The notes under the pieces were generated by a model. It worked only from the letters and a program-made list of their open reading frames with translations, made no database searches and was not told where the DNA came from. This document shows positions 8,894-12,151 of a stretch of 64,000 bases of DNA, piece after piece; positions within the stretch are counted from its first letter, which is position 1, and the number at the start of each line of letters is the position of its first letter. The position numbers were made by a program, and so were the translations under genes. The stretch lies in contig CM035350.1 of the NCBI GenBank assembly GCA_020137815.1, positions 7,316,001 through 7,380,000 on the forward strand, in the 5' to 3' direction. Origin of the DNA: Hormiphora californensis (taxonomy: Eukaryota; Animalia; Ctenophora).

Positions 8894-10138
8894 CTATTTT
8901 CGTCCCTTTTTCTTCTTATTCTTGCCAGAACCACCCGCTTGCTGATTATCCCCGGCATTAGAGGACCGGGACTTTAGTTTGGGTATCATGCTACCACAGT
9001 ACTCCATCAGCTGTCGTTTTGTGTGAATTGACTCGTGGAGGGGATGTCCTTCTGCATCTGCTAGCTGTACTTTCACCTGGTGGTGGGGAGTACGTGTTAC
9101 ATGTGTTACAGTCGGACCCCGATTTAGTGGCACCCCGATTTAGGGACAGGATTTTTCCCCCGATATAGGTAATTAACCTTATTTAACCCCGATTTAGTGG
9201 ACACCCCGATTTAGTGGACAAGAGCCTTTCCCCCGAGGGTGTCCCTAAATCGGGGTCCGACTGTACTACAATCATCTCGTCTTGTTTTTAATTGGGTGCC
9301 CTTTGAAAGGACTACAGAAAAATATCAATGTCTGAATTGACGCCCCGCTGCACGGAAATCTTTAGTAAAAGGCGAAAGATTTATTCGTGATGCAGTGAGA
9401 CCAGACTACCGTTTCTACTGTTTTCATGGTATACAAATTTCAGTTTAGAAACAAACCTTGTGTTTTACTAAGACCAAACTATCTGTCCCCCACTTACCCT
9501 TCCTAGTTGCCATTTCTCCCTGTCAAGTTCCCGACAGTAGTGTTTAGTAGGTTGGAGTCTATGCTCTAGCCCCAAACTCTTAACAACGTCCCCTATTTCC
9601 TGGAATGTAGGATTCTCAACCCCCTTCTCCTTCGGTATCCTCCTACCTCTCTGGAATGGGAGGGTTAAATAGAGGGTAACTGAGAGCTCAAGTTGGTTTG
9701 TATCAACAGCCGCTTGATGTCTGTAATTTTGTGAATTCGTCTGTACACAAATTAGTAATGCTGTGAGCTGTCAAGCGTGCGTGTATCATATATCCGGCTT
9801 CACATATAATATCACCACTATAATAACAGAACACTCCAATTGATACATGTAAATTCTAACTTAGGGTGGAAATTGTGGAACTCAAAAACCGCACACACCC
9901 GGCCAGTCAAGTGTGTGCCGGCGGCGGTATTTGTACCAGGCATATATCAGCTGCCGCCTGCCGCTGTTATTATACTAACTGCTATCTCTCCCAAATAGTA
10001 CAGCGGCCGGCAGCCCATGCACAAGGGTAATGGGGACAGTGGGGGTTCAATTCAACTACGAACCTGTATGGATCGGTTGGAGTTAATGTAAGCAGGATAG
10101 ATGCACTTCCAATTCTTATCTTCACTGACGATATCCAT
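8894..10138 (-). CDS. SRP19: Signal recognition particle 19 kDa protein; exons 10138-10064, 9650-9498, 9077-8894
   Basis: WKCIYPAYINS, GRRIPKEKGVENPT, GRVKVQL, IPKLKSR and basic tail KKKKGRK. Confidence 0.93.
9109..9263. mobile_element. Tc1/mariner-type MITE, family A copy 2 (SRP19 intron 2)
   Basis: TIR CAGTCGGACCCCGATTTAG / CTAAATCGGGGTCCGACTG with TA on both flanks. Confidence 0.88.
9294..9409 (-). ncRNA. U5: U5 spliceosomal snRNA, copy 1 (SRP19 intron 2, sense to host)
   Basis: Minus strand reads ...ATAAATCTTTCGCCTTTTACTAAAGATTTCCGTG... (invariant U5 loop I GCCUUUUAC and its stem); Sm-like site ATTTTTCTG; 3' hairpin GTCCTTTCAAAGGGC; about 116 nt. Confidence 0.93.
9447..9475 (-). promoter_or_regulatory. 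PSE-like snRNA promoter element of U5 copy 1
   Basis: TAAAACACAAGG core at about -47 to -58, shared at the same spacing with copy 2 while the other flanking sequence differs. Confidence 0.7.
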
Positions 10139-10507
10139 TGCTAGCAGAGGGATTAGGGGGATTAGGGTTAGTTGTGGGGGGGGGGGGGGGGTACAAGAAT
10201 AAAGTGGGCTGGGGGGGGGGGTGCAAGAATAAAGTGGGCTGATATTCGAAAACAAAATGTTAAGCGATGACATTTTAAAAACAACAAATACAGTTATGCC
10301 ACCTTTGGCTTTAGAAGCTTGTGAATGTGTATTTTACATAAAAATTCACGGCCCTCTCTATTAATTAATTTGTCTGAAATGGAACACTTCAAACTGATAA
10401 AACACTCATATTATCACTAGCTCATTAGATCCAATGATTCGTATTCTTCAACTTCTAACTTCAACATATCACTCCCAACTTGATTTACAGGACGGTGTGT
10501 ACAGTAT

Positions 10508-12151
10508 TTAGGATTCAATGGGTTCGAGGTTAATCAGCCGGTTGCTTGCTGCTGCAATGTCTGATATCGATACCCTCCCGTTCTGGTTTATAAACCTAGA
10601 GGAGGAGGGAAGATTGGGAGGGAAATGGAGGAGGGAAATACTTTTAACGGCTAGTTAGTAAATGTGTACATTGTACTTTTTATGCAATGCAACATGAAGG
10701 ATCGGTATTTCTACACAGCGGACGGTTGAAGTATTATTGTAAAGAGTCGAATCTCTAATTGCGGATTCCCTCAAAGTAAACTCACTTTGCGACAGATTTT
10801 AACTCATCTTCAGAGATATAGATGAATTTTCCCCGGTCATCAATGACCCCATTAATAGTTCCCTCCTCCTGGAGACTTTCTATCCTCTCCACTACCTCGT
10901 GGATCTTCAGGTTGAAGTGAGCACCCAAATCATCCAATTGGACCACCTTCCGCCGCTTAATGAAATCTGTAGAGATATATAATACAGTTAGTAGAGAGGA
11001 TGAGTTAATAGAGAGTTAGACAAACTCCCCCCCCCTATCAACCCCACCTATCATCCCGATAAACTAACCGATAAACTCAAGGAGGAGGTTTTTCTGAGCG
11101 TCCTCATCGAGAGTTTCCTGTCCCTCCTCGTCAACTGCAAAGCTCTCCTTGAGCAGCAAGTATTCCTCGTGTTCTCTTCTCTCCTGTTCCTCTCTAACCT
11201 TCCTCTCCTCCTCCTTCTTCACTCGCTCCTCCTCCTCTCTCCTCGCTTCCTCTTCTTTCCTCATCTCAAGCTCCAGCTCCATCTGCTTCCTTTTTTCAGC
11301 CAGCAGGGCCATCTCCGCCTGGGAATTAGACGTTAATTAATTAATTAATTAATTAATACTTACGAAGCTGACTGATTGTTATGTTCTAACCCTCCTTTAC
11401 ATTTGTAAAGGGGGTCGAGCTAGGCAAACAATTGCTGTAGGCTCGTGATGAGTAGCGGAGTGAGTCACAATAACTGACCACAGGACTCCCCACCTGGTGG
11501 CTGGGCTAGGTTGGGTCGTTTTATTGTCCTTGTTTTTAATTGGGTGCCCTTTGAAAGGACTACAGAAAAATATCAATGTCTGAATTGACGCCCCGCTGCA
11601 CGGAAATCTTTAGTAAAAGGCGAAAGATTTATTCGTGATGCAGTGAGACCAGACTACCGATAACTTAACAGGAGGAGGAATATAAAATGTAGCCCAGAAA
11701 CTTTCCTTGTGTTTTAGTAGCACCTAAATATCCACTTCCTAACACTCAACCTCTCTCTGCTCTTTCCTCTCTGCTTTATCAGCCAACTTCTTTAACTTTT
11801 TCGTCCCGTGTTTTTTCTCCGGTTTATCATCCTCACTATCACTTCCGCCTCCACCACCACCAGCCTCCTCTGCCGCGCTATCTGAACTATCTCGTCCTGT
11901 TGACTCTGCGCCTCCTTCGTGCCCTGACCGGGGCCCCGTCAGATCTCACATGGTCCACTAGTACTCGGGGAGCTGTGTGAGGGAGAGAGGTTCACTTAGA
12001 AGTTAAGATTAGACGATGGTAAGAAAGGGTCAAGTAGGTACAAGTAAAGGAATCCTGTACCTCTTTCTTTGGGTGTTTTCTTCTGGCTGATAACAAATAG
12101 GACAAATCCCGCGACCAGGGCAATACCTGCATATATCCAAGAGGTATCCAT
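10508..12151 (-). CDS. DDRGK1: DDRGK domain-containing protein 1 (UFBP1), multi-exon
   Basis: N-terminal [22 protein letters not shown] coiled coil, [32 protein letters not shown]-terminal SNRLINL. Confidence 0.95.
11542..11657 (-). ncRNA. U5: U5 spliceosomal snRNA, copy 2 (DDRGK1 intron, sense to host)
   Basis: Identical to 9294-9409, including the downstream AATTAAAAACAAG 3'-box-like motif. Confidence 0.93.
11696..11724 (-). promoter_or_regulatory. PSE-like snRNA promoter element of U5 copy 2
   Basis: TAAAACACAAGG at about -48 to -59. Confidence 0.7.

What the first reader, a model, noticed from the sequence alone, without database searches (positions are those of the whole stretch)
9281..11724. 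Two identical U5 snRNA transcription units nested in sense orientation in introns of adjacent housekeeping genes
Seen: a ~130-bp identical block at 9281-9411 (SRP19 intron 2) and ~11530-11659 (DDRGK1 intron) contains U5 loop I, an Sm-like site, a 3' hairpin and a 3'-box-like AATTAAAAACAAG. The flanks are unrelated except for TAAAACACAAGG at about -47/-59 and a TTT[G/T]TATA motif near -25, both within the ~90 nt after the host 5' splice site. Established: Pol II snRNA genes use a PSE near -55 and a 3' box recognised by Integrator, and are usually free-standing. Inference: these are independently promoted snRNA genes inside host introns, kept identical by selection or conversion. Sense nesting could also let U5 be made from excised introns, or let the 3' box attenuate host transcription.
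Basis: partly seen in the sequence, partly recalled or inferred. Interest (0 to 1): 0.72.

Follow-up and report, generated by a model that had tools for sequence, protein, structure and literature searches.

The report
Comb-jelly U5 genes nested in introns
Two identical genes for U5, a small RNA of the splicing machine, sit inside introns of two neighbouring housekeeping genes of a comb jelly, each behind a shared upstream sequence that is likely its own promoter, an arrangement already well known from nematodes and so mostly ordinary.

Summary
The observation largely holds. Rfam U5 matches at 9297-9407 and 11545-11655 (minus strand, 77.1 bits each) lie in an exact 131-bp repeat, sense-nested in intron 2 of SRP19 and intron 2 of DDRGK1 of a pleurobrachiid comb jelly. 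The upstream likeness is larger than reported: a gap-free 43-nt block (31/43 identical) made of a 24-nt element at -63..-40 and an AT-rich box at -31..-21, the layout of insect PSEA/PSEB promoters. Contigs of a second sample confirm the junctions tested; a related species keeps U5's 3' part in the DDRGK1 intron and the promoter region in the SRP19 intron. It is neither a high-copy SINE nor an assembly artefact. Expression was not shown, and the '3' box' fits the human consensus no better than chance. The premise 'usually free-standing' fails: in C. elegans 47 of 120 snRNA genes and 10 of 12 U5 genes are intronic. Release from excised introns and host attenuation have no support here. What is new is a candidate ctenophore snRNA promoter, not found in my paper searches. 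The scan noted a similar nested U6 gene in another genome. Verdict: new member of a known kind, low interest.

The parts
9297..9407 (-). U5 snRNA gene, copy 1 (in SRP19 intron 2); true ends may differ by a few bases
   Evidence: Rfam RF00020 77.1 bits, model 1-117
11545..11655 (-). U5 snRNA gene, copy 2 (in DDRGK1 intron 2)
   Evidence: Rfam RF00020 77.1 bits, model 1-117; 3' part laid with DDRGK1 exon 3 on one contig of organism B (X12 record 11)
9281..9411 (-). 131-bp block identical between the copies (4 nt before the Rfam start to 16 nt past its end)
11529..11659 (-). second copy of the identical 131-bp block
   Evidence: two X5 contigs end 29-30 nt inside its edge, as expected at a repeat boundary
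9447..9470 (-). candidate PSE-type element of copy 1, -63..-40, 20/24 identical to copy 2
11696..11719 (-). candidate PSE-type element of copy 2
9428..9438 (-). AT-rich second promoter box of copy 1, -31..-21, 8/11 identical, same spacing from the first element in both copies
   Evidence: binomial p 0.002, window chosen after seeing the alignment
11677..11687 (-). AT-rich second promoter box of copy 2
9471..9483 (-). weaker upstream extension of the promoter likeness (9/13; counterpart 11720-11732)
9281..9293 (-). conserved downstream element, 3'-box by position only (copy 1)
   Evidence: inside the identical block; 4 mismatches to the human consensus
11529..11541 (-). conserved downstream element, 3'-box by position only (copy 2)
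   Evidence: lies inside the laid piece 11487-11584 of X12 record 11
9077..9497 (-). SRP19 intron 2 (421 nt, phase 0), host of copy 1
8894..10138 (-). SRP19 gene: coding exons 10138-10064, 9650-9498, 9076-8894
   Evidence: intron 1 spliced in RNA contig X10 record 1
11319..11750 (-). DDRGK1 intron 2 (432 nt, phase 0), host of copy 2
10508..12151 (-). DDRGK1 gene: coding exons 12151-12061, 11972-11751, 11318-11069, 10966-10786, 10595-10508
   Evidence: introns 3 and 4 spliced in RNA contigs X10 records 2 and 3
9107..9265 (.). MITE-like insertion with terminal inverted repeats just downstream of copy 1
   Evidence: arms 9102-9135 and 9237-9270, 88% complementary; related copies near 1511 and 15445
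11375..11427 (.). short, very high-copy repeat downstream of copy 2
   Evidence: summed contig depth 18,681-382,293 in bin 11324-11397 of the three DNA runs

Best explanation
These are two intact U5 snRNA genes nested in the sense direction in intron 2 of SRP19 and of DDRGK1, each likely transcribed by RNA polymerase II from its own two-part promoter inside the intron and likely cut at its 3' end like other snRNA genes, independently of the host mRNA. Shown: U5 identity, intron position, the shared upstream block at fixed spacing, the junctions tested in a second sample, and retention in a related species. Inferred: SNAPc binds the -63..-40 element; the -31..-21 box acts like the insect PSEB; Pol II rather than Pol III is used, because the T runs inside U5 would stop Pol III (established knowledge); Integrator cuts near the conserved downstream element; host polymerase reads through and the U5 letters leave with the intron. 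The sharp-edged 131-bp identity is likely kept by gene conversion among U5 copies plus selection on the RNA. The nesting itself is likely a tolerated landing place, not a function.
For: Full-length Rfam match with paired stems. Gap-free upstream block 31/43, its 24-nt part 20/24 at the usual PSE position; the 23-nt pattern occurs 2 times in the window at up to 3 mismatches and 0 times in 100 shuffles. Insect Pol II snRNA promoters are two-part (21-24 bp PSEA plus about 8 bp PSEB), align without gaps and are lineage-specific (PMC1761439 passages). Likeness stops between box and start (3/16) and right after the downstream element, the pattern described for human U1 family genes (PMC3874203 passage). 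Organism B: X8 record 20 lays 9425-9512 (exon 2 end, splice site, whole promoter block) with 8 other letters and no gap in 88, while listed pieces over SRP19 intron 1 have 16-18 gaps; X12 record 11 holds DDRGK1 exon 3 and 11487-11584 on one 447-nt contig. No poly(A) tail or target-site duplication (longest A run 5, longest shared flank word 4-5 nt). Precedent: intronic C. elegans ncRNAs with the PSE-containing motif UM1 are on average far more abundant than, and uncorrelated with, host mRNA (PMC1474057); 8 of 10 intronic C. elegans U5 genes need Integrator for 3' processing.
Against: The promoter rests on two copies; no other snRNA gene of this genome was available (no whole genome; 0 hits in metagenome and viral contigs; 0 related DDRGK1 loci). 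The block does not resemble the human PSE (5-6 mismatches of 13 fixed positions) and the downstream element does not beat chance against the human 3' box. The first 15 nt of the element also occur antisense in a GPCR exon at 7823-7809 with no snRNA behind it. U5 itself in organism B's SRP19 intron is implied by the contig (41 unlaid letters on the U5 side), not shown. Conversion is not shown, since organism B's U5 letters were not listed.
Confidence: 0.85

Rival explanations
1. One or both copies are silent: recent or conversion-maintained duplicates or pseudogenes that look intact.
For: [quoted passage not shown]
Against: Both copies keep the promoter block at fixed spacing while the spacer between box and start has diverged. 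Both positions appear occupied in organism B, which differs by about 7-9% in laid pieces. No poly(A) tail or target-site duplication.
Confidence: 0.07
2. The nesting is regulatory: the U5 unit attenuates or interferes with its host gene, or its read-through is spliced or trans-spliced onto the next host exon.
For: Both promoters start 27-31 nt after a 5' splice site of intron 2, a parallel geometry. In C. elegans, failed 3' processing gives chimeric snRNA-mRNA transcripts of sense downstream genes (PMC6390993). Leader trans-splicing is common in this family (PMC8527503 section 37). DDRGK1 exon 3 has an in-frame Met at codon 3, kept in 3 of 3 ctenophore homologs.
Against: Human 3' boxes are ignored by polymerase from mRNA promoters (PMC5493778). 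U1- and U2-derived chimeras were not translated in C. elegans. Spliced SRP19 and DDRGK1 RNA contigs exist. In an unnamed, more distant ctenophore the first 189 nt of SRP19 intron 2, seen as read-through translation, show no U5-like signal (scores 14-19 against shuffled means 17-19), so the arrangement seems lineage-limited.
Confidence: 0.06
3. U5 is released from the excised host intron, like an intronic snoRNA.
For: Both copies are in the sense direction in housekeeping genes.
Against: A conserved promoter-like block at -63..-21 would be unnecessary. PMC1474057 states that no release mechanism from lariats was known for snRNAs and that the intronic fly U7 gene has its own active promoter (the U7 paper itself was not available). 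snRNAs are capped, exported and cap-trimethylated (PMC5493778 legend); a lariat product has no cap (established knowledge).
Confidence: 0.03
4. The repeat is an assembly artefact or a high-copy U5-derived SINE.
For: Perfect identity over 131 bp; both host introns also carry true mobile repeats.
Against: A second sample (X5) has contigs across the copy 1 upstream junction (record 12, 9400-9463, 1 other letter) and the copy 2 downstream junction (records 17, 19); organism B has the copy 2 junction in two samples (X8 record 27, X12 record 11). Summed depth over U5's 3' part is 347-955, against 18,681-382,293 on the true repeat 200 nt away (depth is no copy number and some records are filtered). 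The copies are full-length and tail-less.
Confidence: 0.01

Closest known systems
Intronic U5 and other UM1/PSE-promoted snRNA genes of Caenorhabditis elegans (PMC1474057 passages; PMC3342880 passages and section 10; PMC6390993 passages and S1 Table)
   Same: snRNA genes wholly inside introns of protein-coding genes, with their own upstream motif; 10 of 12 U5 genes intronic, some on the same strand as the downstream gene; gain and loss without change to the host gene.
   Different: Different phylum and promoter sequence; here two adjacent host genes each carry one copy close behind the 5' splice site of intron 2; expression and Integrator dependence are shown in the worm, not here.
Insect Pol II snRNA promoters, PSEA plus PSEB (PMC1761439 passages)
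   Same: Two conserved blocks, a 21-24 bp upstream element and a short downstream box, at fixed gap-free spacing; sequence specific to the lineage.
   Different: The second box here is AT-rich and TATA-like rather than the fly PSEB sequence; no binding or mutational test exists; based on two copies.
Multi-copy snRNA families under concerted evolution, including Drosophila and mouse U5 paralogs (PMC4291461 passages; PMC3874203 passage)
   Same: Copies are alike in the RNA-coding part and diverge right after the 3' box.
   Different: [quoted passage not shown]
Nested intronic genes of pleurobrachiid ctenophores (PMC8527503 section 38)
   Same: Nesting, often parallel to the host, is frequent in this family (2357 nested genes in 1654 hosts).
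   Different: That survey counted annotated transcripts; the passages read do not mention snRNA genes.

Membership tests
U5 spliceosomal RNA (Rfam RF00020) | Score above the family's gathering threshold over the full model | tested here: met
   77.1 bits against 40, model 1-117, both copies
U5 spliceosomal RNA (Rfam RF00020) | Long 5' stem with the conserved loop I | tested here: met
   loop I letters match the consensus and the stems pair, with one non-standard pair marked
U5 spliceosomal RNA (Rfam RF00020) | Single-stranded Sm site followed by a 3' hairpin | tested here: met
   A-U5 run aligned to the model's Sm site, followed by C where the consensus has G; the site is unpaired and the 3' hairpin forms in both MFE and centroid folds of the 3' part, z -1.35, not significant alone
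U5 spliceosomal RNA (Rfam RF00020) | Expressed as a TMG-capped, Sm-bound small RNA | not testable with these tools
   only RNA contigs were available; depth 0 on the laid 3' part is not evidence of absence
Pol II snRNA gene (PSE / SNAPc / Integrator type) | Conserved upstream element near -55 shared between copies | tested here: met
   24-nt element at -63..-40, 20/24 identical; 2 window matches, 0 in 100 shuffles; region kept without gaps in organism B
Pol II snRNA gene (PSE / SNAPc / Integrator type) | The same element upstream of other snRNA genes (U1, U2, U4) | tested here: inconclusive
   no whole genome; 0 hits in public contig scans; weak hints of further copies: raised summed depth in bin 9400-9473 in all three DNA runs and an X12 joint ending at 9470
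Pol II snRNA gene (PSE / SNAPc / Integrator type) | 3' box downstream of the coding region | tested here: inconclusive
   16 nt past the Rfam end are identical in both copies, but 4 mismatches to the human consensus, reached by 69% of random positions
Pol II snRNA gene (PSE / SNAPc / Integrator type) | SNAPc binding, Pol II transcription, Integrator cleavage | not testable with these tools
   needs ChIP, RACE or knockdown; presence of these complexes in ctenophores was not checked
Nested (intronic) snRNA gene | Wholly inside a spliced intron of a protein-coding gene | tested here: met
U5-derived SINE or retropseudogene | High copy number, poly(A) tail, target-site duplication, truncation | tested here: not met
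   no tail or duplication; full length; depth far below the neighbouring true repeat
Intron-processed small RNA (snoRNA-like biogenesis) | No promoter of its own; output tied to host splicing | tested here: not met
   a promoter-like block is conserved upstream of both copies; dependence on host splicing itself could not be tested

The most novel reading that the evidence does not exclude
The nesting is functional: the strong U5 promoter just behind the intron 2 splice site doubles as an internal promoter, so uncut read-through is trans-spliced to exon 3 and yields a DDRGK1 form lacking its N-terminal hydrophobic anchor (Met at codon 3 of exon 3, kept in three ctenophore homologs), or the downstream element throttles host transcription, tying ER-targeting genes to snRNA 3' processing.
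Probability: 0.06. Interest if true: 0.7.

Novelty: new member of a known kind. Interest (0 to 1): 0.2.

Why it matters
Modestly. It gives a first candidate sequence for a Pol II snRNA promoter in comb jellies, a lineage at or near the base of animals. My searches listed no paper on ctenophore snRNA promoters, though only the top 9-20 rows of each were seen and most subscription papers are not held. A two-part promoter with an AT-rich second box would bear on what the ancestral animal snRNA promoter looked like, and the 24-nt element is a handle for finding unannotated small-RNA genes in these genomes. The nesting itself is ordinary. Only a functional link to host expression would be surprising.

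Tried and rejected
Whole-genome scan: no genome held. Promoter pattern in JGI metagenome contigs: 0 hits; in viral contigs: 0 hits. DDRGK1 relatives in metagenome contigs: 587 pattern matches, none confirmed. So no further snRNA loci or orthologous introns could be fetched as DNA. Rfam at E up to 5 over the window: 32 rows, only the 2 U5 hits reach a gathering score; no tRNA genes. The exact spliced-leader motif at 57468-57488 was checked as a possible second promoter test, but it heads a retroelement-like ORF, has no GT after the leader and no match to the element upstream. Matching to the human PSE and 3'-box consensus: no better than chance. RNA run X10 shows no cover over the laid U5 part or promoter: not used as evidence of silence. 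Of 14 runs listed, 4 were laid (X5, X8, X10, X12); X1-X4 were left out as the possible source sample, X13 and X14 held next to none of the words. Table 3 hid 94 rows, so organism B's differences inside U5 could not be read. A gapped alignment of the upstream regions gave no convincing likeness beyond -76 (6/24), so the idea that one copy was duplicated together with host exon sequence was dropped. Similar intron lengths (421, 432) and distances to the 3' splice site (220, 226) were set aside as coincidence, since each intron has a different repeat insertion. Papers not held: four look-ups failed; supplements of PMC3342880, which may give strand of nested genes, could not be read; the Trichoplax PSE table came through empty. 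A search for sense-nested U5 with all five terms gave 0 papers.
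Full report
Observation. The two blocks are exactly identical over 131 bp, 9281-9411 and 11529-11659. Rfam finds full-length U5 on the minus strand at 9297-9407 and 11545-11655, 77.1 bits each against a threshold of 40; they are the only two gathering-level hits in the window. 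The alignment shows the long 5' stem, loop I matching the consensus, an A-U5 Sm-type site and a 3' hairpin.

Organism and hosts. The neighbouring NUDIX protein is 90% identical to a cluster that holds a Pleurobrachia bachei protein. The only named hit for SRP19 exon 2 is Mnemiopsis (82%) and the best hit for DDRGK1 exon 4 is Bolinopsis (88%). A 21-nt leader motif published for this family matches exactly at 57468-57488. The window is from a pleurobrachiid comb jelly. SRP19 has coding exons 10138-10064, 9650-9498 and 9076-8894 and translates without a break (PF01922). DDRGK1 has five coding exons from 12151 to 10508. U5 copy 1 lies in SRP19 intron 2 (421 nt) and copy 2 in DDRGK1 intron 2 (432 nt), on the host strand, starting 90 and 95 nt after the 5' splice site. 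The exon joints across both introns agree with spliced homologs. RNA contigs of run X10 show SRP19 intron 1 and DDRGK1 introns 3 and 4 spliced; the SRP19 contig stops matching at 9499 and continues with 154 letters that do not lie on the stretch, as expected if intron 2 is spliced.

Promoter. The likeness is in fact a gap-free block from -63 to -21, 31 of 43 identical: a 24-nt element (20/24), an 8-nt spacer (3/8) and an 11-nt AT-rich box (8/11). The 13 nt above it are 9/13 alike; the 16 nt between box and identical block are 3/16. The segment borders were drawn after seeing the alignment, so the p-values are guides only. Of 20,000 random window pairs drawn, 2 reached 31/43. The 23-nt pattern occurs twice in the window with up to 3 mismatches allowed and never in 100 shuffles. 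This is the layout of insect Pol II snRNA promoters, PSEA plus PSEB at fixed spacing and specific to the lineage (PMC1761439, passages). Against it: the block is unlike the human PSE (5-6 mismatches of 13 fixed positions); the motif TTT[G/T]TATA fits copy 1 only; and the first 15 nt recur antisense in a GPCR exon near 7820 without the rest of the block, which I cannot explain beyond coincidence. In vertebrates a TATA box behind the PSE selects Pol III (PMC5493778), but the T runs inside U5 would stop Pol III (established knowledge), so Pol II is the likely enzyme. The downstream element is identical in both copies but has 4 mismatches to the human 3'-box consensus, which 69% of 5,000 random positions equal or beat; it is a 3' box by position only.

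Other samples. Four of 14 listed runs were laid on 9400-11590, all as contigs. In X5, a second sample of the same organism, one contig crosses the copy 1 upstream junction with 1 other letter, and two end at 11557-11558, 29-30 nt inside the identical block, as assemblies do at a repeat edge. In organism B, about 7-9% different in laid pieces, X12 record 11 carries DDRGK1 exon 3 and 11487-11584 on one 447-nt contig, and X8 record 27 crosses the same junction. X8 record 20 lays the SRP19 exon 2 end, splice site and whole promoter block with 8 other letters and no gap in 88; its 41 unlaid letters lie on the U5 side, so U5 there is implied, not shown. Summed depth on U5's 3' part is 347-955 in the three DNA runs, against 18,681-382,293 on the short repeat in the same intron; depth is no copy number and some records are filtered, but a high-copy SINE is unlikely. 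There is no poly(A) tail or target-site duplication. X10 has no cover on the laid U5 part, which shows nothing either way. Raised depth at 9400-9473 and an X12 joint that ends at 9470, the element's upstream edge, are weak hints of further promoter copies. In an unnamed ctenophore whose SRP19 exon 2 is 80% identical, six predicted proteins read 63 codons into intron 2; their translations score 14-19 against the three U5 frames, like shuffles (means 17-19), so U5 is probably not within the first 189 nt there. This is indirect.

Mechanism. Most likely each copy is a self-contained gene: SNAPc on the upstream element, Pol II start near the Rfam start, 3' cut near the downstream element, then export, Sm assembly and cap trimethylation as for other snRNAs (PMC5493778, passages). 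Host polymerase would read through and the U5 letters leave with the intron; in human cells the 3' box is only read by polymerase from an snRNA promoter. All of these steps are inferred. Identity that runs through the 3' hairpin and 16 nt past the end, in copies that seem older than the split from organism B, points to gene conversion, since fly and mouse U5 paralogs vary at the 3' end (PMC4291461, passages); it is not shown, because organism B's U5 letters were not listed.

Comparison with what is known. Nesting is common. In C. elegans 47 of 120 snRNA genes are inside introns and only 17% of nested snRNAs are shared with C. briggsae (PMC3342880, passages and section 10). In the S1 Table of PMC6390993 (read whole) 10 of 12 U5 genes are flagged intronic; 5 of the 10 are on the strand of the listed downstream gene, 2 opposite, 3 have none listed; 8 of the 10 need Integrator. 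The listed gene need not be the host. Intronic ncRNAs with the PSE-containing motif are expressed far above, and independently of, their hosts (PMC1474057, passages). Nested genes, many parallel to the host, are frequent in this ctenophore family (PMC8527503, sections 37-38). The supplements of PMC3342880, which may give orientation, could not be read.

Novelty. Searches (listings seen) showed no paper on ctenophore snRNA genes or promoters, so the candidate promoter seems undescribed within the held library. The arrangement is a new member of a known kind. The boldest reading left open is a functional tie to the host: read-through trans-spliced to exon 3, where DDRGK1 has a conserved in-frame Met that would give a form without the N-terminal hydrophobic stretch (its role as ER anchor is recalled, from no call), or attenuation of the host. 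C. elegans makes such chimeras only when Integrator is disrupted, and the U1 and U2 ones were not translated (PMC6390993, passages). I give it 0.06. Overall interest 0.2.

Noticed in passing
window about 11890-11895 (-), DDRGK1 exon 2: Apparent one-base frameshift against three ctenophore DDRGK1 proteins: the exon starts in one frame and continues in another. Assembly error or a real allele; outside the laid stretch.
   Followed up: partly
window 7809-7823 (-): The first 15 nt of the copy 1 promoter element recur antisense inside the coding exon of a rhodopsin-family GPCR (7072-8070 +), without the rest of the block or any Rfam hit behind it. Unexplained.
   Followed up: partly
window 57468-57510 (-): Exact spliced-leader motif directly ahead of a long ORF, followed by a reverse-transcriptase-like ORF (52392-55106); looks like a leader-capped LINE, as other notes of this scan describe for this genome (ORF labels from reading the translation).
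   Followed up: partly
window 10139-10144 and 12152-12157 (-): SRP19 and DDRGK1 both have an AG two bases before the start codon, and the SRP19 RNA contig stops matching at 10142 with 8 letters left over: likely leader trans-splicing. NUDIX, DDRGK1 and SRP19 are close and on one strand, possibly an operon.
   Followed up: no
window 9107-9265; related copies near 1511-1600 and 15445-15640: MITE-like element with terminal inverted repeats, inserted about 16 nt after the end of the identical block of copy 1.
   Followed up: partly
window 11375-11427: Short repeat with very high summed depth in all three DNA runs; X12 record 11 has 88 letters where the window has 162, so it seems absent at this place in that sample.
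   Followed up: no
SRP19 and DDRGK1 introns: Three of six 5' splice sites start GTT rather than GTA or GTG (intron 4 border).
   Followed up: no
window 58859-59514 and 23672-24133: Long inverted repeats (193 and 127 nt arms, 94-96% complementary), probably foldback transposons; they cause the sub-threshold microRNA hits in Rfam.
   Followed up: no
window 12983-13753 (-): Single-exon DUF4743/NUDIX gene; beyond three close hits (90, 52, 50%), many of the best matches at about 40-45% are bacterial.
   Followed up: no
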